Part shown: positions 401 to 39,570 of the stretch, in pieces | How the letters are laid out: the number at the start of each line of letters is the position of its first letter | Position numbering within the stretch: the stretch's first letter is position 1 | NCBI GenBank assembly: GCA_031371805.1 | Contig: JANMKB010000441.1 | Location: 1-42,653 of the forward strand | Direction of reading: 5' to 3' | Source of the DNA: Blastocatellia bacterium | Lineage (GTDB): Bacteria > Acidobacteriota > Blastocatellia > RBC074 | Length of the DNA: 42,653 bases | Notes under the pieces: generated by a model | The model's database searches: none | What the model saw: the letters and a program-made list of their open reading frames with translations, nothing else | What the model was told of the DNA's origin: nothing | Translations under genes and position numbers: made by a program

Positions 401-1345
401 ATGGCTAAAATAAAAGGTACGTCTTTACAGCCTTATCCGCGTCGTCAGCCAGATGGTTATTTGGCTGACGATTCTTTATTTCCGCTACCAGAATCTTCCA
501 TTACGGCAGAACAACTTAATGCAGCTATTACCAGAGCTTTTGAGCGTGCATTAAAAAACAAAAGTGGCGAGGAAAAAAAACTCCCACAGTCACCCGAAGA
601 ACTTGTCACACTTTGTTTGCAACATTTGCGTCAACGAAGTGATCCTGTCCTTAGCCCATTCTTTTTTAGCCACTGCGATGTTGATGAAATCTTTGAGTTA
701 GATGCGATTGCCCATGAAATGCAAAGACGCCGCATGAAAATTGGTCTTTTCTATCAATATTTAGTAATTGAACTAATGCGCTACCGCTTTCCGCTGACCT
801 ATGATGGTAAAAAAGAAGGCGATGTTGAAGCTGATATTGATACGCCAAATTTTTCCAGAGGGCTGCGACTATTCATGTCTGTGAAGAAATCTGCGGATAC
901 AGTAGGGGGGCAGGACGTGGGAGGAATGATACGGCGGCTTGAAGCAATGGCAGCAGAAGATAAAAATTTAACCAGACCTTATTTATGTGTCGCCTGCATT
1001 GCCACACCTCCCGGTGGTAAACTTCGCGCCTATACTGATTCACGACTAATGCGGCGCAATAATGAAGGGTATCCATATTCTCCAAATTGTGAGATATGGC
1101 TGCCAGGATTTATTTTTCCCTTTATTTCCGGCCTACAGCCAAAGGATATTTACAAAGCAGCATTTGCAAAAGTAGGTGAATTTTTGCCATTTTATGCACT
1201 TTCCCAACGTAAAGAATGTGCAGCCTTGTTGACACAAGAACTTAATAAACTTGGATTGGTAGATGAAAATACTGGTAAAATTGCTCCTGCTAAATTTCAG
1301 GCGTATATCAGTCAAATGACCATTAAAAAGGAAAAGCTAAAATGA
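401..1345 (+). CDS. hypothetical protein, candidate type II restriction endonuclease partner of the adjacent methyltransferase
   Basis: 314-aa ORF whose stop overlaps the methyltransferase start by 4 nt (ATGA at 1342-1345). It is visibly AT-richer than sucD. There is a possible PD-(D/E)XK-like core (GDVEADID ... FMSVKKS). No family was recognised with certainty. Confidence 0.45.
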   Translation: MAKIKGTSLQPYPRRQPDGYLADDSLFPLPESSITAEQLNAAITRAFERALKNKSGEEKKLPQSPEELVTLCLQHLRQRSDPVLSPFFFSHCDVDEIFELDAIAHEMQRRRMKIGLFYQYLVIELMRYRFPLTYDGKKEGDVEADIDTPNFSRGLRLFMSVKKSADTVGGQDVGGMIRRLEAMAAEDKNLTRPYLCVACIATPPGGKLRAYTDSRLMRRNNEGYPYSPNCEIWLPGFIFPFISGLQPKDIYKAAFAKVGEFLPFYALSQRKECAALLTQELNKLGLVDENTGKIAPAKFQAYISQMTIKKEKLK

Positions 1346-2256
1346 CGCTTCCATCACTCAAAACTACGCTGAGAAAAGTAGATGCTACCTGCACCGTGAT
1401 TCAGGGAGACAGTCGCAATGAATTACAGGATTTCGCTGATCAGGTAGATTTAATTGTTACCTCGCCACCTTATGCCGATGCACGGCGCAAGCATTATGAC
1501 AGCGTTCATCCTGATAAATTTGTTGAGTGGTTTCTGACTTTTCATGAGCCATTTTTCAAGGCGCTAAAACCGGAAGGCAGCTTAGTCATCAATATCAAAG
1601 ACAAAGTAATTGATGGTGTCCGGCATCGTTATGTGTGGCGGATGATGGACGCATTGTGTGATCAAGGCTGGCTCGCGATTGAAGATTATATCTGGCATAA
1701 AACAAACCCAATGCCGGGAGCTTGGCCTTCACGATTAAGCGACGGCTGGGAATATTGTTTTCATCTGGCAAAATCCAAACGCCCTTATTTCAACGCCGAT
1801 GCAGTACGCAAACCGATTGGCGATTGGGTTGAGTCACGTTTACGAAAATTAGGTGGGAACGATTTGAGCCGTCACAATTCTGTCAATGAAAGTGGCTTTG
1901 GGCGTGATATTTCCAAGTGGGTTGGCAAGCAAACGGTTTTACCTTCCAACGTCATCAGCCGCGCACTGGTCGGCAAAAACAAAAATCATCCTGCCGTGTT
2001 CCCGGTTGATTTACCACTATTTTTTATCAAGCTTCTCTCACCCGAAAATGGTTTAGTCGTTGATCCATTTGGCGGCAGTGGCTCGACTGGCATTGCTGCG
2101 CTCTCGGTCGGGCGTGACTGTGTTTTGATTGATAACAACCCGCAATATTGTCAGGCAGCGATTAAAAGATTACGTGAAGAAGCGATGGCGCAGGATCGTG
2201 AATTAATCCCTGCGCAACGCACGCTTTATGAAGTCATACAAGGAAAAGATTCATGA
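1342..2256 (+). CDS. DNA methyltransferase, beta-class amino-methyltransferase (N4-cytosine or N6-adenine)
   Basis: Catalytic motif IV SPPY (nt 1462-1473) lies N-terminal to the AdoMet motif I, DPFGGSGSTGIAA. This order defines the beta group. SPPY rather than DPPY leans towards m4C. Confidence 0.85.
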   Translation: MTLPSLKTTLRKVDATCTVIQGDSRNELQDFADQVDLIVTSPPYADARRKHYDSVHPDKFVEWFLTFHEPFFKALKPEGSLVINIKDKVIDGVRHRYVWRMMDALCDQGWLAIEDYIWHKTNPMPGAWPSRLSDGWEYCFHLAKSKRPYFNADAVRKPIGDWVESRLRKLGGNDLSRHNSVNESGFGRDISKWVGKQTVLPSNVISRALVGKNKNHPAVFPVDLPLFFIKLLSPENGLVVDPFGGSGSTGIAALSVGRDCVLIDNNPQYCQAAIKRLREEAMAQDRELIPAQRTLYEVIQGKDS

Positions 2257-3362
2257 CACACGCCACAACCGCAGGCACAGCCGCATATCGCAATCGTTTT
2301 GCTGACACTCTTGCAGGAGGACATTTTCGCCAGGCGCAGGATTTATGGATGTCTTCGCTGGGGCTGGGTTCATATCTTGGTGAAACCGATGCTCGCACGG
2401 ATGAAGGCTACAGGGCGGCGGTCAAACGGACTTTTGATTTGGGCTGCAATGTGTTTGATACGGCGTCGAATTATCGGTTGGGACGCAGCGAGAAAAATTT
2501 TGGCGCGGCGTTTGCCGAATTAACGGCGGCAGGCAAACTGGCACGTGAAGAAATTATCGTCACGACTAAAGGTGGCTATTTGCCCTTTGAAAACGGGATG
2601 CCACGCACTCAGCAGGAATTCGTCGCGTATCTCGAAAATACTTTTGTTAATCCAGGCATCTGTAGCCTCACGGATTTTGTGCAGGGTTCGCATTGTATGA
2701 CGCCGGGCTTTTTGCAAAACCAGCTCAGCAACAGCCTGCGCAATTTGCAGCTTGATTGCATTGATGTTTATTACCTGCACAATCCCGAATCACAATTTGC
2801 CGAAGTCACAAACGACGAATTTTATGCTCGCTTACGTGCGGCCTTTGAATTTCTTGAAATCGCTGTGGTCAGCGGAAAAATTAAAATGTATGGAACCGCC
2901 ACCTGGAACGGCTATCGCACCAGTTCCCAAAGCGGTGATCATCTTTCACTCGAAAAAATCGCAGCCACTGCCCGCGAAGTCGCAGGCGAGGATCATCATT
3001 TCAGAGTCGTGCAATTGCCCTTCAATTTGGCCATGACCGAAGCCCTGACGCTCGGCAATCAAACTGTAAAAGGGCAGGCGTTGTCCGTGCTGGAAGCGGC
3101 GAAAGATCTAGGAATTACAGTGATGGCGAGCGCTTCGATGTTTCAGGCAAGACTGGCTTCGGGCCTGCCGCCAGTTGTGAGCGAAGCGTTTCCCGGCTTA
3201 CAAACCGACGCCCAGCGAGCGATTCAATTTACACGTTCGACGCCGGGCATCACGACGGCATTGATCGGCATGAGCCAAGTCGCCCACGTCGAAGAAAATC
3301 TTGCCGTCGCACAAATCAATCCGGCGACAGAGGCTGAATTTTTGCAGTTGTTCGCACAATAA
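2253..3362 (+). CDS. aldo/keto reductase family oxidoreductase
   Basis: 369 aa with AKR hallmarks (FDTASNY, GRSEK, ...IDVYYLHNPE...). The start overlaps the methyltransferase stop (ATGA at 2253-2256). Confidence 0.85.
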   Translation: MTHATTAGTAAYRNRFADTLAGGHFRQAQDLWMSSLGLGSYLGETDARTDEGYRAAVKRTFDLGCNVFDTASNYRLGRSEKNFGAAFAELTAAGKLAREEIIVTTKGGYLPFENGMPRTQQEFVAYLENTFVNPGICSLTDFVQGSHCMTPGFLQNQLSNSLRNLQLDCIDVYYLHNPESQFAEVTNDEFYARLRAAFEFLEIAVVSGKIKMYGTATWNGYRTSSQSGDHLSLEKIAATAREVAGEDHHFRVVQLPFNLAMTEALTLGNQTVKGQALSVLEAAKDLGITVMASASMFQARLASGLPPVVSEAFPGLQTDAQRAIQFTRSTPGITTALIGMSQVAHVEENLAVAQINPATEAEFLQLFAQ

Positions 3363-3367
3363 AATTC

Positions 3368-4405
3368 TCACCACAGCTTCCATTTTTTCGGCTCTGGTTT
3401 GGCTGGAGTTGTTGCGTCTTCCACGACATTTTTTTCTTTCTCAACTGGCCTGGCGCGAAATGGCGTGAAGCGTTTTTGTAATCCATGTTTTTCAATCAGC
3501 GCCCGCACCCTTTGTTTACAGGCCGCGCATTTGACCGGATCAACCATCAATAAATAATTTGCAAACCCATTCAGCGAAGCCAGAACGTCTATGGACGAGT
3601 GCTAGGCTTTTCCTTCTGGCCCATCTTTTTCAATTTGAAACAACACGGCGCGAAAGCGTTTCAGCACTTTGCGATCAATGCTCAATTTTTGGTTGACGAC
3701 AATGCCTGTCACTTCCTGTTGGCGGGCGCGGCGTAACACTCTGGTTTTCGCGGGATGAATTTCCAGGCCTTCGTGCGCGACAATCGCGGCGGTTTTCTGT
3801 AAGACATTGCAAATATTTTTTTTGCTCTCGCCCGAAGTCGAAAACGTCAAATCATCCGCATAGCGCCTGTACACAAAGCCCATCTCGTCAGCCATATTTT
3901 GCAATCGGCAATCCAACCGATGACATAAAATAATTGTAATCGCGGGGCGGGTCGGAGCGCCTTGTGACAAATGCCGCTCACTTATCGCGACAAAATAATT
4001 TTTGCCATCAAGCGTAACTTTTTCGACTTCGGGTTCAGAGCAAAGCAACCCGAAAATTGCGGCGATGATTTGTGCGATCAACGATTTGGCGGCATCGTCC
4101 GGCAACGCAGAAGAGCGCAACAAATTCCGTGCAAATTCGCGTGTGTCCTCGAATGGGCTTGTGACTAATAGCAACAAAAATTGCTTATCGCTAAGGAAAG
4201 GATTGCGGCCTGCGTCAATCCAACGATGTGCCTGTTCATGGGCTTCGTCATTCTGTGCAAAGACGCGTTTGGGTGGCGGTGATGCGCCGCCTTCGGTATG
4301 CACAACGCGATAGCCTTTTTTCGTTTTCTCGTTGCCCAGTGCAGCAAACGCTTTGTCCGCCTCAGTTCGTTTGACAGGCGAGGTAGTCTTTGTCCCTTCT
4401 TTCAA
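3368..4405 (-). pseudogene. retron/defence-type reverse transcriptase-like gene interrupted by in-frame TAG codons (probable pseudogene)
   Basis: The 267-aa ORF 3602-4405 carries LSQGAPTRP (motif B'), RYADDLTFS (YADD at 3851-3862) and QEVTGIVVNQ (VTG motif of retron-like RTs). The motif-A position reads LLLLVTSPFED, with no aspartate. The TAG at 3602-3604 is followed in the same frame by a thumb-like continuation (LNGFANYLLMVDP..., through ORF 3368-3550). A second in-frame TAG lies at 4424-4426, upstream. Confidence 0.6.
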
Positions 4406-4647
4406 ATTCGCGCCATGCCGCCCCTAACGAAAATTAACGACATAAGTGTCTGCGCCAACTTCGCACAAATCTATCTTGTAAACTTTGTCAAAATTACCTT
4501 CACGAAAATGCAGTGAGGTTTGCTGAATCAGTTTCATCACGCAAGAAATAAGGGAGAGGAAACATTGACTTAGCTGGGTCAATTTGCGAGGCGTCATCAC
4601 CCTGCAATCCATTTTTTTCTCAAGCGAAATTTTTGCGAAATTTTCCC

Positions 4648-5103
4648 TTAACGAGGCAGCAATGAATGAGGTGACGGACGATGAACATAAACGGTATTGC
4701 CTTCGATCCGATCAATTTTTACGGACTCGCCAACTTGCAACGGCGCTTCATCGTCCATCGGAATCGCTGTCCAGACTGATCCAAAAGCTCTGATCGCGGC
4801 TTCATTGCGTGTCCCCTGGCTTGGCTCAACGACTTGTACGATTTCTCCAATCATAATTTCGACGCCGGTTTTAAGGGCTTTGCGTCGGCTGATGAATTTT
4901 TCAAGAATTGTTCGTGAGGCAATGACCAGGGAAACCGAAATGGCGAGAAAAATAATGATTTGCGCGGACACGTTATGCAAGCCAAGCAAGGCCAGCAATG
5001 CTGTAACGCCTGCCCCAATGCCAAACCACAGCAAAAAGAAACCCGTCGTGGCGACTTCGCCAGCCATCAGTAATGCCGCAATCACGAGCCAGATAATCCA
5101 CAT
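4648..5103 (-). CDS. NfeD-family membrane protein
   Basis: 151 aa. The N-terminal half is hydrophobic helices (WIIWLVIAALLMAGE..., FLLWFGIGAGVTALLALLG...). The C-terminus is an NfeD-type OB segment (GEIVQVVEP...GSVWTAIPMDDEAPLQVGESVKIDRIEGNTVYV). Confidence 0.65.
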   Translation of the reverse strand: MWIIWLVIAALLMAGEVATTGFFLLWFGIGAGVTALLALLGLHNVSAQIIIFLAISVSLVIASRTILEKFISRRKALKTGVEIMIGEIVQVVEPSQGTRNEAAIRAFGSVWTAIPMDDEAPLQVGESVKIDRIEGNTVYVHRPSPHSLLPR

Positions 5104-5237
5104 ATAAAATCAATCCTCACGCAAGCGGCATGCTATGACAGGGACAGACCTCGCACAAGAAAATTTGGCGGACGGGCAGTTATTCTCCAGGCATTTTTCC
5201 TGTGCTACTATGTACTCGTTTTTTATTTGAGGAAAAT

Positions 5238-5798
5238 ATGAGCGCATTATTAGCCAGACGACCATTCACGACTACGGAATATTATAAGCTGCTCGAAACA
5301 GGTTTTTTCACCGAAGACGACCGTGTTGAGTTGCTTGATGGAGAAATAATTACGATGTCACCAATTGGTCCCCGACATGCCGCCAGCGTGAAAAGATTAA
5401 TCGCTTTTCTTAATCGGAAAATTTCTGCGGATGTATTAATTGGAGCGCAAGACCCGATTCATCTCAATCAATACTCTGCGCCACAACCAGATATTTCTAT
5501 TCTTAAATTCCACGCTGATTATTACGCCAGTGGTCATCCTGAGCCGGAAGACATTCTTATTGCCGTTGAAGTGGCCGATAGTTCCGTTGATTATGACCGC
5601 CAAATCAAATTTCCCAAATATGCGCAGGCAGGCATCCCTGAAGCGTGGCTGGTGGATTTGGTCAATGATCGCATTGAAATTCATGCGCTGCCGAATGAAG
5701 GGATTTATCAGGAAGTTCGCATTGTCCTCCGCCATCAGAAAATCATTTCCCGCATCCTGCCGCAATTGAAACTGAAAGCAGAAGATATCCTCGGCTAA
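5238..5798 (+). CDS. Uma2-family (DUF820) putative endonuclease
   Basis: TTEYYKLLETGFF...RVELLDGEIITMSP...PDISIL...IAVEV.D.S...D...K...YA.AGIPE.W is the Uma2 pattern. ATG 5238 is preceded by GAGGA. The upstream TTG extension at 5202 is unsupported. Confidence 0.8.
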   Translation: MSALLARRPFTTTEYYKLLETGFFTEDDRVELLDGEIITMSPIGPRHAASVKRLIAFLNRKISADVLIGAQDPIHLNQYSAPQPDISILKFHADYYASGHPEPEDILIAVEVADSSVDYDRQIKFPKYAQAGIPEAWLVDLVNDRIEIHALPNEGIYQEVRIVLRHQKIISRILPQLKLKAEDILG

Positions 5799-6601
5799 GC
5801 ATTCGCCACCATTGCAAGTTTGATTTTATCGGCGGCGGCTAAGGTTTGCTCTCGATCAAAAATTAACGTCTTATCCGCCGTCACCGACATCGCTGTCACA
5901 TTACATTCCTGGATCGTCGTCATCGTCTTCAGCCCAATTACTGGCACATCAAATCGCATGTCCTGATTTGGCTTGGCGACTTTAATCACGGTCAATGGAC
6001 GCCCGCGTACCAATTCCGCCGCACGTCGAATGGTTGCGTCTGTGCCTTCCATGGCTTCGAGCGCAACGACTGCCTGATTTTTCACAGCGATAGTTTGACC
6101 GAGGTCGAGCCGCGCTAATTCATGCGCGACGTGCAAGCCGTATTCGATGTCGGCAATTTCATTTTTATTCGGAGTGCGTTTTGTGAGTGTTCCAGTCCGT
6201 GCCAGCAATGGTTGCAAAAACGTCGTCGAGTCAATCAGGGTGATGCCTTCGCTGGCAAGTTCATCGGCTACAGCGCCAAGCAGTGCATCCGTATTGCGAC
6301 GCTTGAGCCGCGCCAACATCTTTGCCATCCGCAAATCCGGCAGCGCATTCAACTTGAAAATCTGGACGTGTTTGACCTGCCCCGCCATCATCACGTGCGT
6401 GACATTTTCGCGCCTGAAAAATTTGATGAGCCTGCCCAGTTGCCCAACGCTGACCGATTCAAATGTTGAGGCAAACGAACTGAGATTTTTGTCCGCCTCT
6501 TCGCTGATCGCAGCCACCGCTAATTCGACTCCTTCCGCACGTGCACCATCAAGCACGAGAAAGGGGAAACGTCCGTTGCCTGCGATGATTCCGTATTTCA
6601 T
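5795..6601 (-). CDS. lpxI: UDP-2,3-diacylglucosamine diphosphatase LpxI (DUF1009)
   Basis: IIAGNGRFPF N-terminus, LDLGQTIAVKNQAVVALEAMEGTDATIRRA and VKVAKPNQDMRFDVPVIGLKT match the LpxI family pattern. Confidence 0.8.
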   Translation of the reverse strand: MKYGIIAGNGRFPFLVLDGARAEGVELAVAAISEEADKNLSSFASTFESVSVGQLGRLIKFFRRENVTHVMMAGQVKHVQIFKLNALPDLRMAKMLARLKRRNTDALLGAVADELASEGITLIDSTTFLQPLLARTGTLTKRTPNKNEIADIEYGLHVAHELARLDLGQTIAVKNQAVVALEAMEGTDATIRRAAELVRGRPLTVIKVAKPNQDMRFDVPVIGLKTMTTIQECNVTAMSVTADKTLIFDREQTLAAADKIKLAMVANA

Positions 6602-6995
6602 ATTTCAGCCTCTGATAAAAGTACCACCTAATCACTCATTTTAGCAGTGTCTGGCAAATCTCAGGTTAAAGAGATGCACCTATGGTATTTTCTGGTGAAA
6701 TATTTATTTTGTGTTTTATTGCCAAGACTGAATATGATCCAGGACGGGAATGATAAGTTGGCAATGATGAGGTAGTTCGACTTTCGATTAATTAGCGGCG
6801 TTGTTGCACGAATCCAAGCGCGTGTTTCGGTACAAGGCGATCTGTGGAGCCCACTTAAGGACGCGCAAACTGGAAAACCAATTCAACGAAATGTTTATTA
6901 AATGTGCGCTCCTCAATCGGATGACGCACCTCGGCATGCCGGACAGTTACAAGGTCACCGGCTGAAAGAAAGTCTTTCCGTCAAGGGCTCGGCAT

Positions 6996-7717
6996 TTATG
7001 CAACAACGTCACGCAAGTCTGTTGAGCGTAATATGCCCTGCTTTACCCAGAATACTTCTTCAGCCTGAATACTATAACCGTGTTTTGTTTTCGGAAGATC
7101 AATACTTATTGATGGCATTGAAGATAAAGGTAGTACATTATGAGAAACATCGCCACGCAGCTTGCAAGATATTGACCTAACCATGTTCGAGAATGAATTC
7201 TGAACACCAGCTTGACGACGTTCCTGGTCGCTCCATCTGTGCCCATAAGTATTTATTCTATCAAACACATCATTAACTTCCACATCGGAGCCTTCCTCAT
7301 CACTGATAAAGCTAGAGTATAATCTAGTAAGATACTGATTTCTTTCACTGTCAGAAACGGACCATTCTTCTTATCTTCGAATAGAGCATCGTCGGCATTT
7401 TTCTTTGCAGTTGGGAAGTTATTGACATTGAAATATCGACTTTCCAGATCGGCGAACAAATTCTCGATAAACGATAGTATGGCCTGAAGTCTTTGTAACC
7501 CGTCAATGATTTCATATGTTCCTGGTTCACCATCACGTTCGGCTATCAGAATAGCTGGAATAGAGTATTTCTTTAATATTGATTCGATGAGTTTTTGTTT
7601 TTCGGTCAGCGTCCAAACAAGTTTTCTCTGATACTTTCTATTTACGAATAACTTGTCCTCTCTGTACATCAAGTATAGAGATTGTATTGAGGTTGGTAGA
7701 GATATTAGTTCTGCCAT
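6996..7717 (-). pseudogene. DUF262 (ParB/GmrSD N-terminal-like) protein, frameshifted and C-terminally truncated
   Basis: ORF 7253-7717 has YQRKLVW...IPAILIAE...IIDGLQRLQAI (DUF262 core). The expected next conserved block (FDRINTYGHR.SDQE) is in another frame, in ORF 6996-7283. No nuclease C-terminal domain follows. Confidence 0.7.
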
Positions 7718-37299: not shown

Positions 37300-38406
37300 T
37301 TACGCTACAGCGAGCAGGTGCTGGACAATTCTCGCACTCGCTTTACCGTCACCATACGGATTTACGGCTTGCGACATTTTTTCGTAGGCAGTTTTGTTCT
37401 CCAACAGAATCATTGTTTCCTGCACGATTTTTTCTTTGTCTGTGCCGACGAGTTTTACTGTGCCTGCCGTGACGCCTTCGGGTCGTTCGGTGACTTCGCG
37501 CAAGACCAGTACGGGTTTGCCAAGCCCCGGCGCTTCTTCCTGAATCCCGCCGGAATCGGTGATGACCAAATATGACTGCTTCAGTAATTGCACGAGAGGT
37601 AAATATTCCAGCGGCTCCAGCAGCGTAATATTCGTAATTTTTCCCAGCAATTCGCGCACAACCGTTTGCACGTGCGGGTTAAGGTGAACGGGATAGACGA
37701 TGTGAACATCAGGGCGACGCTCCGCAATTTCGCGCAGGGCTGCACAAATATTATGCAATGGCGCACCATGATTTTCGCGGCGATGAGCGGTGCCCAGGAT
37801 AATTTTTTTGTCGCGTGGAACGGCGGCGAGCGGCGAGGTTTCCCAGGCGTAAGGTTTTTCGGCAACCTGTAACAACGCATCAATTACGGTATTGCCGGTG
37901 ACAATAATCTGCGTTTCGTTCACACCTTCGCGCAGGAGATTTTGTTGGGAAATTTCTGTGGGCGCAAAATGTAAATCGCTAATACTTGTAGCGATTTTGC
38001 GATTAATTTCTTCAGGAAATGGCTGGTATTTGTCGAAAGAGCGTAAACCCGCTTCGACGTGACCGACTTTAATTTTGTGATAAAAGGCAGCGAGCGCGGC
38101 AACCATTGCGGTAGTTGTGTCGCCCTGCACCAAAACCCAGTCCGGTTTTTCTATTTGCAGGACTTTATCAAGCTTCGTCAACGCGTGCGCGGTAATCGTC
38201 GCCAGCGTTTGATTCGGTTGCATAATGTCTAAATCGTAATCGGGCTGTAGCGCAAAAAGTGCCAAAACCTGATCCAGCATTTTGCGGTGTTGGGCGGTGA
38301 CACAAACTAAGGAAGTGAGTTTTTCCTGATGTTTATTTAATTCTGCAATGACCGGAGCCAGCTTGATCGCTTCGGGACGCGTACCAAAAACAGAGAGAAT
38401 TTTCAT
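37300..38406 (-). CDS. wecB: UDP-N-acetylglucosamine 2-epimerase (non-hydrolysing)
   Basis: MKILSVFGTRPEAIKLAPV..., VQGDTTT, HVEAGLRS, AHRREN, LVITDSGGIQEEAP. Confidence 0.9.
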   Translation of the reverse strand: MKILSVFGTRPEAIKLAPVIAELNKHQEKLTSLVCVTAQHRKMLDQVLALFALQPDYDLDIMQPNQTLATITAHALTKLDKVLQIEKPDWVLVQGDTTTAMVAALAAFYHKIKVGHVEAGLRSFDKYQPFPEEINRKIATSISDLHFAPTEISQQNLLREGVNETQIIVTGNTVIDALLQVAEKPYAWETSPLAAVPRDKKIILGTAHRRENHGAPLHNICAALREIAERRPDVHIVYPVHLNPHVQTVVRELLGKITNITLLEPLEYLPLVQLLKQSYLVITDSGGIQEEAPGLGKPVLVLREVTERPEGVTAGTVKLVGTDKEKIVQETMILLENKTAYEKMSQAVNPYGDGKASARIVQHLLAVA

Positions 38407-38414
38407 AATGACGC

Positions 38415-38443
38415 TTGCAACCTAAAACCGTAAGCTTTACACT
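38415..38443 (+). promoter_or_regulatory. sigma70-like promoter for the tRNA-Leu gene
   Basis: TTGCAA (38415-38420), 17-nt spacer, TACACT (38438-38443). The tRNA 5' end is 13 nt downstream. Confidence 0.4.
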
Positions 38444-38455
38444 TCCAGCCGTTCT

Positions 38456-38762
38456 GCCGGGGTGGCGGAATTGGTAGACGCAACGGACTTATTAATTTGA
38501 GCACCGGGAGCGAAATCTCCCGTGTGAATGGAGTCAAATTCGGTGAACCCTTTTATCTGGCAACACCGAGCTAAGTTTGGAGTAACAGCTCCAAAAAAGT
38601 GTAGAGACTAGACGGCTCCCATCTGACTGCTGCATAAACGGTAAAAGGTGAAGGTATAGTCCAGACCACAAACTGGCAACTGTCAGGCGGCGAAAGTCGA
38701 AGTGGTAAGAAAATCCGTTGGAGCTTGTCTCCGTGCGGGTTCGATTCCCGCCCTCGGCACCA
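38456..38762 (+). tRNA. tRNA-Leu(UAA) interrupted in the anticodon loop by a group I intron (exons 38456-38490 and 38710-38762, CCA encoded)
   Basis: 5' exon: GCCGGGG-TG-GCGGAATTGGTAGACGC-A-ACGGA-CTT. 3' exon: AAAA-TCCGT, variable arm GGAG-CTTGT-CTCC, T arm GCGGG-TTCGATT-CCCGC, acceptor CCTCGGC (one G.U), A, CCA. The spliced anticodon loop is CUUAAAA. Confidence 0.88.
38491..38709 (+). ncRNA. group I intron (tRNA-Leu UAA type, no ORF)
   Basis: It follows exon U34 and ends in G (38709). The internal guide GAG (38499-38501) can pair with exon CUU, giving U.G at the splice site. Stems: CGGGAG/CTCCCG (38505-38522), GACTA/TAGTC (38606-10 / 38657-61, P7-like) and the GAAA-tetraloop hairpin CGGC-GAAA-GTCG (38688-38699). 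The core string GTAGAGACTAGACGG resembles the cyanobacterial intron core (from memory). Confidence 0.8.
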
Positions 38763-38771
38763 AATTCCAAA

Positions 38772-38818
38772 ATCAAAGCCTTGAAAAGTTGCACAACTCT
38801 TCAAGGCTTTGATTTTTT
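38772..38818. terminator. bidirectional rho-independent terminator between the tRNA and the convergent rhodanese gene
   Basis: ATCAAAGCCTTGAA (38772-38785) pairs with TTCAAGGCTTTGAT (38800-38813), a perfect 14 bp. It is followed by T5 on the + strand and preceded by an A-run, which gives a U-run on the - strand. Confidence 0.8.
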
Positions 38819-38839
38819 AGCAGACATTTTTTCTGTAGT

Positions 38840-39343
38840 TTACTTTGGCTTTTGCTCTTCAACCTCTCCGCCTGCATCTTTCCAGGCATTCAGCCCACCT
38901 AACAACGCGCTCACATTTGTATAACCAGCTTTCATCAAAATAGCAGCCGAACCGGCGCTTGTATGTTCGCTTGGTCAGGTACAATAAAAAATGAGCTTTT
39001 TATCTTTGGGCAGCTTTGGGTTTTTCCCGTCCTGGAAATCCTTATACGGAATATTCAAAGCGCCTTTGATGTGCATCGTGACGAAACTTGATTCATCACG
39101 AGTATCAATTATCACCGCCTCCTTTGCCTGCCTGGCCTTGATTGCATCCTCAGCTTTAATACGCGGCACGTTATCGTCCTGAGTGACGGGTGCGGGGCTG
39201 GACAAATCGCTCTGTGTCAGCGCAGCCGTCGCCGCCTGATCCTTGGCAGCGACAGTTTGTGAGGAGCCAGCACAGCCGACAGTCCAAAGCAGGAAAGTTG
39301 CCAGCAGGCTTCCGTAAATGAAAATGACCATTTTTCTCATCAT
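38840..39343 (-). CDS. rhodanese-domain lipoprotein with in-frame TGA (candidate selenocysteine; otherwise a nonsense pseudogene)
   Basis: Lipobox LWTVGC. Rhodanese fold blocks VIIDTRDESSFVTMHIKGALNIP and KKLIFYC-T-[TGA 38975-38977]-PSEHTSAGSAAILMKAGYTNVSALLGGLNAWKDAG. The frame is open to TAA 38840-38842, which sits 22 nt before the terminator. Confidence 0.6.
38942..38959 (-). promoter_or_regulatory. SECIS-like hairpin 15 nt downstream of the in-frame UGA
   Basis: The mRNA reads AGCGCCG-GUU-CGGC(U)GCU: a 7-bp G/C-rich stem with a bulged U. The apical G-U-containing loop starts about 22 nt after the UGA. Confidence 0.35.
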
Positions 39344-39570
39344 AATTCTCAATCCTTTGTGGCGTTCTCGTATGTAAACGAGTAAGTTTTTATTTTTGCA
39401 TTCAGCAGAAGCATAGTCTAGCGCAAATGTGACAAAAACATAACTTGAATTTTCACTTCGGCTCAGCCAGAATCATTAGTTGATTGCGAGCAACCCGAAA
39501 GCCTATTGATGAATCAGATTTCTTTTCCCCATTAGAAGGTCTGAACCAGGTGGCTGAGCGGAGTTTGAAA

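What the first reader, a model, noticed from the sequence alone, without database searches (positions are those of the whole stretch)
38840..39352. Rhodanese lipoprotein with an in-frame TGA in the active-site loop and a SECIS-like hairpin: candidate selenoprotein
Seen directly: the tracked ORF stops at TGA (38975-38977), right after ...KKLIFYCT. The same frame then continues without stops for 44 codons (PSEHTSAGSAAILMKAGYTNVSALLGGLNAWKDAGGEVEEQKPK) to TAA at 38840. That continuation is exactly the missing C-terminal third of a rhodanese domain (...S.aa..L...G..nV..L.GG..aW). The strong bidirectional terminator sits 22 nt after this TAA and about 157 nt after the TGA.
Fifteen nt after the UGA the mRNA can form AGCGCCG-GUU-CGGC(U)GCU. 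This is a G/C stem with a bulged U and a G-U apical loop, at a distance compatible with bacterial SECIS elements.
Established knowledge: rhodanese-type sulfurtransferases act through a loop cysteine, and Sec-containing rhodanese-related proteins have been reported in bacterial selenoproteome surveys.
Inference: the codon gives a C-T-U motif, which would correspond to a C-x-C in Cys homologues. A simple TGY->TGA nonsense mutation is the competing explanation. An exported (lipobox) selenoprotein would be unusual.
Basis: partly seen in the sequence, partly recalled or inferred. Interest (0 to 1): 0.72.

Follow-up and report, generated by a model that had tools for sequence, protein, structure and literature searches.

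The report
Selenocysteine rhodanese lipoprotein gene, mis-annotated
The apparent premature stop is a real selenocysteine codon in an exported sulfur-transferase-like enzyme; the enzyme belongs to a large family in soil Acidobacteria that databases list as truncated, so it is a solid new member of a kind of selenoprotein so far known only from prediction.

Summary
The minus-strand gene 39343..38840 has an in-frame TGA (38977-38975) after ...FYCT. It is followed by 44 sense codons that complete a rhodanese domain, a hairpin 15 nt after the TGA, and a strong terminator after the TAA.

The selenoprotein interpretation is supported. Of 105 homologous gene copies from MAGs and soil metagenomes, 95 carry TGA at this codon, 10 carry TGC/TGT and none TGG. 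The downstream frame is always open and shows a coding substitution pattern. The hairpin is conserved in 80 distinct sequences, with compensatory changes and frozen synonymous sites, and it is absent from Cys forms.

On four contigs of the same lineage (Pyrinomonadaceae/Blastocatellia), selB lies directly upstream of a family member. Profile alignment puts Sec on the canonical catalytic Cys, with an invariant Cys two residues before it (C-x-U). All family members carry export signals.

The closest curated family is NCBIfam NF041203 (rhodanese_LYCAU, CxU selenoprotein). It is the best hit at 84 bits, below its 115-bit cutoff, so this is a sister clade. GenBank annotates such genes as ~120-aa truncated proteins.

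Not shown: Sec machinery in the window's own genome, selenium in the protein, and the substrate.

The parts
38840..39343 (-). Complete gene for a 167-residue selenocysteine-containing rhodanese lipoprotein precursor (ATG 39343 to TAA 38842-38840, read through UGA at codon 123)
   Evidence: sequence, ORFs; Pfam Rhodanese spans the TGA; same architecture in 95 gene copies; database gene call starts at this ATG; P0245 is the same product read through
39272..39343 (-). Signal peptide and lipobox (MMRKMVIFIYGSLLATFLLWTVG|C24): predicted lipoprotein export signal
   Evidence: PROSITE-type lipobox pattern met; 47 of 84 family N-termini meet it strictly, and the rest show relaxed lipoboxes, type I signals or signal anchors; residues 1-55 disordered in the model. 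Lipidation itself is inferred.
38876..39151 (-). Rhodanese domain (residues 65-156), interrupted by the UGA at residue 123
   Evidence: PF00581, 64 bits vs cutoff 22.2, profile 3-101 of 102; confident model, pLDDT mostly >90, best PDB matches are single-domain rhodaneses
38981..38983 (-). TGT, Cys121: family-invariant Cys two residues before Sec (candidate resolving or partner thiol)
   Evidence: invariant column; aligns at position -2 relative to the canonical catalytic Cys
38975..38977 (-). UGA decoded as selenocysteine (residue 123), at the canonical catalytic-Cys position of the rhodanese loop
   Evidence: TGA in 95 of 105 copies, TGC/TGT in 10, TGG in 0; hhalign 97.8% and 97.1%: U aligns with C of the CG[SG]GFRS loop; TGA reproduced in independent assemblies
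38942..38960 (-). SECIS-type hairpin, 14-15 nt after the UGA: (A)AGCGCCG-GUU-CGGC(U)GCU; family consensus GAGCGCC(G/C)-GUG-(C)GGYGCUC
   Evidence: fold; synonymous sites frozen: GCC 80/80, NGU 79/80, NCG 80/80; Cys forms differ; 84.8% paired vs 32-52% slid; 5 of 8 pairs with compensatory change; 36 double-change cells, 0 of 500 shuffles; third-position entropy 0.75 in the hairpin vs 1.5-1.6 elsewhere
38769..38816 (.). Perfect 22-bp hairpin flanked by an A-run and a U-run: bidirectional intrinsic terminator shared with the convergent tRNA-Leu gene; lies after the full-length ORF
   Evidence: -31.7 kcal/mol, z = -7.28, 0 of 200 shuffles; hairpin alignments. Terminator function is inferred.

Best explanation
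This is an intact gene for an exported selenoprotein: a single-domain rhodanese whose catalytic cysteine is replaced by selenocysteine.

Decoding. During translation the UGA at codon 123 is recoded. The GC-rich hairpin starting about 15 nt downstream, with an apical G-U-containing loop, recruits SelB-GTP-Sec-tRNA(Sec), so Sec is inserted instead of termination. Translation then continues 44 codons to TAA, and transcription ends at the strong hairpin that follows.

Protein. The 167-residue precursor has a lipoprotein signal peptide (Cys24). The mature domain is therefore tethered outside the cytoplasmic membrane, in the periplasm of a diderm acidobacterium. The active site is C121-T-U123-P-S-E-H-T-S. 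Sec occupies the nucleophile position of the rhodanese loop. The invariant Cys two residues upstream is placed to form a selenenylsulfide with it.

Chemistry (inferred). A selenolate takes up sulfane sulfur or another electrophilic chalcogen or oxidant. The neighbouring thiol or an external thiol then resolves it. This would make the protein a selenol-based sulfurtransferase or redox protein.

Shown here: the conserved UGA, the Cys homologues, the translated downstream frame, the covarying hairpin, the selB linkage in relatives, the position in the fold, and the export signals.
Inferred: actual Sec insertion, lipidation, the selenenylsulfide cycle and the substrate.
For: 1. Forty-nine of the 120 best homologues are gene calls ending exactly at YC[TSAG]; full-length ones have C-x-C.
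2. At DNA level, 95 of 105 copies have TGA, 10 have TGC/TGT and none TGG. All continue 39-59 codons where the contig allows.
3. Downstream codons 13-36 show entropy 1.05/0.79/1.63 for positions 1/2/3, like the upstream codons. There are no stops in 83 sequences. Downstream aa identity is 53% vs 45% upstream.
4. Hairpin: 84.8% of cells are paired vs 32-52% in slid controls; 5 of 8 pairs show compensatory changes (for example the Ser codon switch AGC to UCC is matched by GCU to GGN on the 3' arm); synonymous sites are frozen. Cys forms lack the hairpin (local MFE -8.1 vs -11.4 kcal/mol, p = 0.005).
5. selB (TIGR00475, 380 and 386 bits, cutoff 242) lies directly upstream on the same strand in L030 and L034. 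The same arrangement occurs in GCA_037025625.1 (L174) and GCA_038210455.1 (L176). SelB orthologues are named Pyrinomonadaceae or Blastocatellia.
6. The best curated family is NF041203, rhodanese-related (seleno)protein, LYCAU motif.
7. U aligns with the catalytic Cys. The segment after the TGA supplies two helices and two strands of the fold.
8. TGA is an ordinary, though rare, stop in the window, and the Pfam-matched genes checked here cover their models without read-through.
9. Acidobacteria are known to have the Sec trait (PMC1794560).
Against: - selA, selB, selC and selD were not found in the 42.6-kb window, and the rest of this genome could not be searched.
- The three named assemblies that carry the closest TGA orthologues could not be tied to a SelB record.
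- SelA was not seen among named Blastocatellia hits (inconclusive).
- No Rfam family matches the hairpin.
- The window's hairpin has a GUU loop and a bulged 3' arm, weaker than the family consensus (whole-region z only -2.25).
- The product scores below the curated cutoff of NF041203 (83.9 vs 115 bits).
- There is no experimental evidence for selenium in any member of this or the related predicted families.
Confidence: 0.88

Rival explanations
1. The UGA is read through, but not as selenocysteine. A suppressor tRNA inserts Cys, Ser, Trp or another residue. Candidates are the unusual allo-tRNAs described in Acidobacteria, or a SelB-dependent tRNA-Cys of the selC* type. The product would then be a C-x-C-type (or other) rhodanese made by recoding.
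For: Acidobacteria carry allo-tRNAs proposed as missense or nonsense suppressors, and selC* tRNA-Cys may act as an opal suppressor in other phyla (PMC5389517). selA, selD and tRNA-Sec were not seen in any Blastocatellia locus fetched. Cys works at this position in 10 homologues.
Against: A position-specific, covarying hairpin at SECIS distance with an invariant apical G-U, together with selB placed directly upstream of family members, indicates SelB-mediated decoding. selC* genes were reported from anaerobic Firmicutes, Thermodesulfobacteria, Nitrospirae and Proteobacteria, not from Acidobacteria. If Cys were intended, TGC or TGT would be one mutation away, yet TGA is kept in 95 of 105 copies. 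The nearest curated family is annotated as a selenoprotein.
Confidence: 0.05
2. Termination at UGA is the main outcome. The functional product would be the 122-residue lipoprotein fragment, as annotated in GenBank. Read-through would be minor or conditional, for example only when selenium is available.
For: Public gene calls, including PGAP, end at the TGA. Sec insertion competes with RF2 and depends on selenium supply (PMC4513850 abstract), so some truncated product is expected.
Against: The fragment lacks about 40% of the rhodanese fold, including the active-site loop residues after U, two helices and two strands. The downstream 44 codons are more conserved than the upstream ones and evolve as coding sequence. 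The terminator follows the TAA, not the TGA.
Confidence: 0.04
3. A TGY-to-TGA nonsense mutation: a recently inactivated pseudogene of a C-x-C rhodanese.
For: A single-base change from TGC or TGT would produce it. Considered alone, the window sequence cannot exclude it, and the hairpin z-score is only -2.25.
Against: The same TGA is present in 80 distinct sequences down to about 30% identity, in several assemblies and in tandem paralogues, always with an intact downstream frame. TGA forms outnumber Cys forms about 9 to 1.
Confidence: 0.01

Closest known systems
[quoted passage not shown]
   Same: Single rhodanese domain. Sec lies two residues after a conserved Cys (Y-C-x-U). NF041203 is the best-scoring curated model for the window product and for 10 other diverse members tested. 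Like this gene, the family is predicted only by bioinformatics.
   Different: All 11 Sec-form members tested score 72-97 bits against a 115-bit equivalog cutoff, so this is a sister clade and not a member by NCBI's criterion. Here the loop is U-P-x-E-H-T-S, the proteins carry lipoprotein or signal sequences, and the hosts are aerobic soil Acidobacteriota (Blastocatellia/Pyrinomonadaceae). Whether NF041203 members are exported was not checked.
Other predicted Sec-rhodaneses: form 1 (UxxS, Geobacter WP_010941598.1), forms 2 and 4 (UxxG, 'rhodanese-related sulfurtransferase' of the Sargasso Sea and GOS surveys), the UxU form of the Olavius delta-1 symbiont, and TsoB (UxxxxU)
   Same: Rhodanese fold with Sec in or at the active-site loop. 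All were identified by conserved in-frame TGA plus Cys homologues plus a SECIS (PMC1088965, PMC1976440, PMC13188914).
   Different: Different Sec-flanking motifs, which the reviews treat as separate subfamilies. They come mostly from anaerobic Deltaproteobacteria or marine metagenomes. No selB adjacency or lipoprotein signal is reported in the passages read.
Canonical single-domain rhodaneses (E. coli GlpE; periplasmic PspE; YgaP; Francisella 6mxv; B. halodurans BH2092)
   Same: Same fold (Foldseek E 6e-9 to 1e-6, rmsd about 2.1-2.6 A). The catalytic nucleophile sits at the same loop position, followed by S-A-x-A-A. PspE is likewise extracytoplasmic (own knowledge).
   Different: Those use Cys and a cationic loop (C-x-x-G-x-R-[ST]) suited to thiosulfate. 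Here the nucleophile is Sec, the loop carries Pro, an invariant Glu and usually His with no Arg or Lys, and an extra invariant Cys lies at -2. This suggests a different substrate or a redox cycle rather than the classic thiosulfate:cyanide transfer.
Bacterial SECIS elements, prototype E. coli fdhF
   Same: A stem-loop immediately downstream of the UGA within the coding sequence, with a small apical loop containing an essential G-U. The spacing is compatible with the prototype: here the invariant G and U are nucleotides 26-27 counted from the U of UGA, against 23-24 in fdhF by my recollection.
   Different: A different sequence, one codon further downstream, with no conserved bulged U in the family consensus. 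No Rfam model matches. SelB binding is untested.

Membership tests
Bacterial selenoprotein gene (SelB/SECIS-dependent UGA recoding) | In-frame UGA conserved at the same column in orthologues and paralogues | tested here: met
   TGA in 95 of 105 gene copies, 80 distinct sequences
Bacterial selenoprotein gene (SelB/SECIS-dependent UGA recoding) | Cys-containing homologues with Cys aligned to the UGA | tested here: met
   C-x-C in full-length homologues; TGC or TGT in 10 copies; no TGG
Bacterial selenoprotein gene (SelB/SECIS-dependent UGA recoding) | Sequence downstream of the UGA is translated (open, conserved, coding substitution pattern) | tested here: met
   0 stops in 36 codons of 83 sequences; entropy 1.05/0.79/1.63 by codon position; 53% mean aa identity; completes the Pfam domain and the predicted fold
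Bacterial selenoprotein gene (SelB/SECIS-dependent UGA recoding) | SECIS stem-loop just 3' of the UGA, conserved beyond what the protein sequence requires | tested here: met
   Covariation and slid controls, frozen synonymous sites and absence from Cys forms, RNAalifold core stem
Bacterial selenoprotein gene (SelB/SECIS-dependent UGA recoding) | Sec machinery (selA, selB, selC, selD) in the same genome | tested here: inconclusive
For relatives, selB lies on the same contig directly upstream of the gene in L030, L034, L174 and L176. selA, selD and tRNA-Sec were not seen in the Blastocatellia loci fetched.
Bacterial selenoprotein gene (SelB/SECIS-dependent UGA recoding) | Selenium demonstrated in the protein | not testable with these tools
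   Needs 75Se labelling or mass spectrometry
NCBIfam NF041203 rhodanese_LYCAU (equivalog) | HMM score at or above the curated cutoff (115 bits) | tested here: not met
   83.9 bits with C and 77.1 bits with X at the Sec position; 72-97 bits for 10 other family members. It is the best hit in every case.
NCBIfam NF041203 rhodanese_LYCAU / review 'form 3' | Rhodanese domain with a C-x-U motif | tested here: met
   F-Y-C-T-U. The reviews define subfamilies by domain plus Sec motif.
Rhodanese domain (Pfam PF00581) | Score above gathering threshold over the full domain | tested here: met
   64 bits vs 22.2, profile positions 3-101 of 102; the structure model matches rhodaneses
Rhodanese domain (catalytically competent type) | Nucleophile (Cys or Sec) at the first position of the active-site loop | tested here: met
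   hhalign of the family profile against both 6mxv domains puts U on the loop Cys. One pairwise phmmer alignment gave the alternative register (domain 1).
Bacterial lipoprotein | Signal peptide with a lipobox ending in Cys | tested here: met
   The pattern [LIVMFWSTAG]2-[LIVMFYSTAGCQ]-[AGS]-C is met at Cys24 after a K/R-containing n-region. Processing and lipidation are not testable here.
Rfam SECIS or other described RNA families | Match to a curated covariance model | tested here: not met
   No hit at gathering threshold in the window. No SECIS family even at E <= 10 in 38300-39500.

The most novel reading that the evidence does not exclude
This exported C-x-U rhodanese is the principal, perhaps the only, client of the selenocysteine machinery in aerobic soil Pyrinomonadaceae/Blastocatellia. 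That would explain why selB sits directly upstream of it on several contigs, and would be the reason these bacteria keep the Sec trait. It would then be one of the most abundant soil selenoproteins: a periplasmic, membrane-tethered selenol enzyme. Its acidic Pro/Glu/His loop and vicinal Cys would serve a chemistry unlike classic thiosulfate transfer, such as persulfide or polysulfide handling, peroxide or chalcogen-oxyanion detoxification, or soft-metal binding. It is invisible in current annotation because every copy is called as a truncated protein.
Probability: 0.3. Interest if true: 0.62.

Novelty: new member of a known kind. Interest (0 to 1): 0.45.

Why it matters
- Annotation. A widespread gene family is systematically mis-annotated. 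GenBank and IMG list them as ~120-aa 'rhodanese-like' or hypothetical proteins, or as proteins with Trp at the site.
- Distribution of selenium use. It extends the predicted CxU Sec-rhodanese group to aerobic soil Acidobacteriota and to an extracytoplasmic, lipid-anchored setting.
- SECIS. It supplies a well-supported element (80 sequences with covariation) from a phylum with few described selenoproteins.
- Experimental handle. The selB-rhodanese pair would allow testing of what a selenol does in a rhodanese active site. No Sec-rhodanese has been characterised biochemically as far as the papers read here show.

Tried and rejected
1. Sec machinery in the window: ARAGORN, Rfam and Pfam on the larger ORFs found none.
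2. A second selenoprotein gene in the window: 38 read-through TGA candidates were listed. All but the rhodanese are antisense or out-of-frame stretches inside known genes.
3. Same-assembly proof for the closest relatives (GCA_009612815.1, GCA_016711965.1, GCA_033763135.1). GenBank accession blocks of SelB cluster members did not match those of the truncated rhodaneses.
4. SelA in Blastocatellia: the last homology search, with an acidobacterial SelA, gave named hits only from Terriglobales, Korobacteraceae and Acidobacteriota. This is inconclusive.
5. No selA, selD or tRNA-Sec lies within 10 kb of the selB-rhodanese pairs, and no rhodanese lies within 10 kb of selB in the 80 representative genomes.
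6. The 'C-x-W' proteins were considered as real Trp variants and rejected. There is no TGG among 105 copies, and P0245 is the window's product with W at the TGA.
7. Genome-wide TGA reassignment was rejected. Ordinary genes in the window need no read-through, and two end at TGA.
8. Cyanobacterial origin was suggested by the intron-containing tRNA-Leu(UAA) and rejected. Homologues and synteny place the window in Acidobacteriota.
9. The alternative register, with Cys121 as the catalytic residue, was seen in one pairwise alignment and is loosely compatible with the DSSP boundaries of the model. It is rejected in favour of Sec on the basis of two profile alignments.
11. The simple terminator scan missed the long hairpin; direct folding confirmed it.

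They served only to locate candidates; the SelB hits in L030 and L034 were then verified with TIGR00475.
Full report
**1. What is in the sequence.**
On the minus strand an ORF starts at ATG 39343. An AAGGA lies 9 nt upstream, and a TTG at 39352 is the mechanical ORF start. The ORF encodes MMRKMVIFIYGSLLATFLLWTVGC... and stops at TGA 38977-38975, right after ...LPKDKKLIFYCT. The same frame continues for 44 codons to TAA 38842-38840. With the TGA read as a residue, the 167-aa product matches Pfam Rhodanese from residue 65 to 156, that is across the TGA (64 bits, cutoff 22.2). Fifteen nt after the TGA the RNA forms AGCGCCG-GUU-CGGC(U)GCU. A perfect 22-bp hairpin flanked by A- and U-runs starts 23 nt after the TAA (-31.7 kcal/mol, z = -7.3). 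The only adjustments are the start codon, the product length, and the fact that the hairpin taken alone is only modestly better than shuffles (z = -2.25).

**2. The TGA is conserved, not a lesion.**
A search with the conceptual product returned 120 homologues. Forty-nine are gene calls of about 106-158 aa that end exactly at Y-C-[TSAG]. The full-length ones (about 150-190 aa) have C-x-C at that place.

DNA was fetched for seven such loci from MAGs and metagenomes. All have TGA, followed by 41-51 codons of conserved rhodanese C-terminus, except one cut by a contig end. A metagenome scan with a family alignment added 80 loci. Over all 105 gene copies the critical codon is TGA 95 times, TGC 8 times, TGT twice and TGG never. 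Database proteins with 'W' at this site are TGA read under another genetic code. P0245 is the window's own product with W there.

The window's TGA is reproduced in independent assemblies of separate sequencing runs. Downstream of the TGA there is no stop within 36 codons in any of 83 distinct sequences. Variability by codon position is 1.05/0.79/1.63 bits in codons 13-36, against 1.09/0.91/1.51 upstream. Mean pairwise protein identity is higher downstream (53%) than upstream (45%). The segment is therefore translated.

Ordinary genes of the window end in TAA (15), TAG (6) and TGA (2), and the Pfam-matched ones checked reach full model coverage without read-through. The genetic code is therefore not reassigned.

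**3. The hairpin behaves as a SECIS.**
In 80 distinct TGA forms, aligned without gaps from the TGA, the consensus is GAGCGCC(G/C)-GUG-(C)GGYGCUC at nucleotides 18-36. Three synonymous third positions inside it are frozen: GCC 80/80, NGU 79/80 and NCG 80/80. Third-position entropy falls to 0.75 bits there, against 1.5-1.6 elsewhere.

For the 8-bp stem, 84.8% of cells pair, against 32-52% when the 3' partner is slid by 1-3 columns. Five of eight pairs show compensatory double changes (36 cells), and 0 of 500 shuffles reach that count or the covariation score. The clearest case is the Ser codon AGC changing to UCC on the 5' arm. It is matched by GCU changing to GGN on the 3' arm, which alters the encoded residue there, so pairing is kept at the expense of the protein sequence. 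RNAalifold recovers the 5-bp core.

The ten Cys forms encode similar peptides with other codons. They lack the GUG loop and fold less well locally (-8.1 vs -11.4 kcal/mol, p = 0.005, n = 10). The apical G and U are invariant or nearly so, one codon further from the UGA than in the E. coli fdhF element as I recall it. No Rfam family matches. The window's copy has a GUU loop and a bulged U, a minority variant.

**4. Link to the Sec machinery.**
The window has no sel gene and no tRNA-Sec. A tblastn probe of all fetched DNA found a full-length SelB homologue directly upstream of the Sec-rhodanese, on the same strand, on two soil contigs (L030, L034). Both pass the curated SelB equivalog TIGR00475 (380 and 386 bits, cutoff 242). 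Their orthologues (67-75% identity) are named Pyrinomonadaceae or Blastocatellia bacterium by NCBI.

The same selB-rhodanese pair occurs on a 476-kb contig of GCA_037025625.1, with lipobox, TGA, hairpin and a 44-codon extension all present. It also occurs, cut by the contig end, in GCA_038210455.1. That copy is 42% identical to the window's protein. SelB is present in many species-representative genomes of the lineage, and Acidobacteria are on record as Sec users (PMC1794560).

What I could not show is SelB, SelA, SelD or tRNA-Sec in the window's own genome, or in the three named assemblies with its closest orthologues.

**5. The protein.**
The N-terminus is a lipoprotein signal, with the lipobox ending at Cys24. 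By a strict pattern, 47 of 84 family N-termini have a lipobox. The others show relaxed lipoboxes, type I signal peptides or a signal anchor, so the domain is extracytoplasmic throughout the family.

AlphaFold on the read-through twin gives a confident rhodanese domain (residues ~58-166) after a disordered linker. The post-TGA part contributes two helices and two strands. The nearest solved structures are single-domain rhodaneses and persulfide-carrier domains.

Profile-profile alignment to both canonical domains of 6mxv puts Sec on the catalytic Cys of C-G-[SG]-G-F-R-S (97.8% and 97.1% probability). The family-invariant Cys is at -2. The loop U-P-x-E-H-[TS]-S has an invariant Glu and no basic residue, unlike thiosulfate-binding rhodaneses.

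**6. Most likely mechanism.**
- Shown: a conserved UGA, a covarying hairpin at SECIS distance, selB linkage, and Sec at the nucleophile position of an exported rhodanese.
- Inferred: SelB-Sec-tRNA(Sec) binds the hairpin and inserts Sec. The precursor is exported and lipidated. The selenolate, more acidic and more nucleophilic than a thiol, accepts sulfane sulfur or reacts with an oxidant or electrophile. Cys121 resolves the adduct through a selenenylsulfide.
- The substrate is unknown. Conserved neighbours are uninformative: a PD40/Tricorn-like propeller, UDP-GlcNAc 2-epimerase and tRNA-Leu in one clade, and selB and a universal stress protein in another.

**7. Relation to what is known.**
Sec-containing rhodaneses have been predicted since 2004-2005. 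The 2022 and 2026 reviews list several forms, defined by domain plus Sec motif. One of them has a CxU motif and the NCBIfam model NF041203, 'rhodanese_LYCAU'. That model is the best hit for the window product and for ten other diverse members, but always below its cutoff (72-97 vs 115 bits). By the reviews' criterion (rhodanese domain plus CxU) this gene belongs to the known kind. By NCBI's equivalog criterion it is a sister clade. This explains why PGAP names the truncated halves 'rhodanese-like domain-containing protein'.

I therefore rate it a new member of a known kind. It is real and well supported, but not a surprise to a selenoprotein specialist. The points of interest are the size of the clade in soils, its export signals, the tandem paralogues and the selB adjacency.

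**8. Rivals.**
- A nonsense mutation is excluded by the comparative data.
- Read-through by a non-Sec suppressor (Acidobacteria have odd allo-tRNAs, PMC5389517) is not formally excluded. That is because selA, selD and selC were not seen, but it does not explain the hairpin or the selB linkage.
- Some termination at the UGA is expected under selenium limitation, but the fragment cannot fold as a rhodanese.

Noticed in passing
window 38456-38762 (+); intron 38491-38709: The convergent neighbour is a tRNA-Leu(UAA) gene split by a 219-nt group I intron between anticodon bases U34 and A35, the classic cyanobacterial/plastid insertion site, here in an acidobacterial context. ARAGORN and Rfam at gathering threshold both miss it (Intron_gpI 37.1 bits, E 1.4e-7, below the cutoff of 50). 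The syntenic tRNA-Leu(UAA) genes in L001 and L002 are intronless. No paper in the library combines 'group I intron', 'tRNA-Leu' and 'Acidobacteria'.
   Followed up: partly
L031, L035, L047, L050, L054, L067, L072, L079 (Sec+Sec); L057, L061, L088 (Sec+Cys): Many soil contigs carry two family members about 500-600 nt apart, either both with TGA or one TGA and one Cys form. This indicates repeated duplication and Sec/Cys interconversion within the family.
   Followed up: partly
L030 785-2698 / L034 935-2848 / L174 10001-11914 / L176 10001-11902: selB lies immediately upstream of the Sec-rhodanese gene and is followed by a convergent universal-stress-protein gene. selA, selD and tRNA-Sec are not within 10 kb. 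In 80 species-representative genomes no rhodanese lies within 10 kb of selB, so this is a clade-specific arrangement.
   Followed up: yes
GenBank MBK8313821.1, MBK7597186.1, MBK9706434.1, MBK6797085.1, MDX2030480.1, HEU0180078.1, MGH9937244.1; ENA P0245; JGI P0033/P0034 and others: Public annotation is inconsistent. PGAP and IMG-126-aa truncated 'rhodanese-like' or hypothetical proteins. Some ENA and JGI gene calls read the TGA as Trp and give full-length proteins with a spurious C-x-W motif.
   Followed up: yes
window 1342-7717: A cluster of mobile or defence-type ORFs: N6/N4 DNA methylase (1342-2256), a 267-aa reverse-transcriptase-domain ORF (3602-4405, minus strand), a Uma2-family endonuclease (5202-5798) and a GmrSD N-terminal domain ORF (7253-7717, minus strand).
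   Followed up: no
window, 23 largest ORFs: Stop codon usage is strongly skewed: TAA 15, TAG 6, TGA 2. By position, the two TGA stops appear to be 4-nt ATGA overlaps with the next gene (1342-1345 and 2253-2256).
   Followed up: partly
L003 4457-8387 (ERZ25039530 contig_2656): In one distant family member's locus, the Sec-rhodanese lies just downstream of an FdhD-like gene, a 793-aa molybdopterin oxidoreductase and a MobA-like gene. This may be a functional hint (sulfur or selenium delivery to a molybdoenzyme) or coincidence.
   Followed up: no
L002 5489-6616: Fragmented IS605-family OrfB/TnpB (Cas12f-like) ORFs lie near the orthologous locus in GCA_016711965.1.
   Followed up: no
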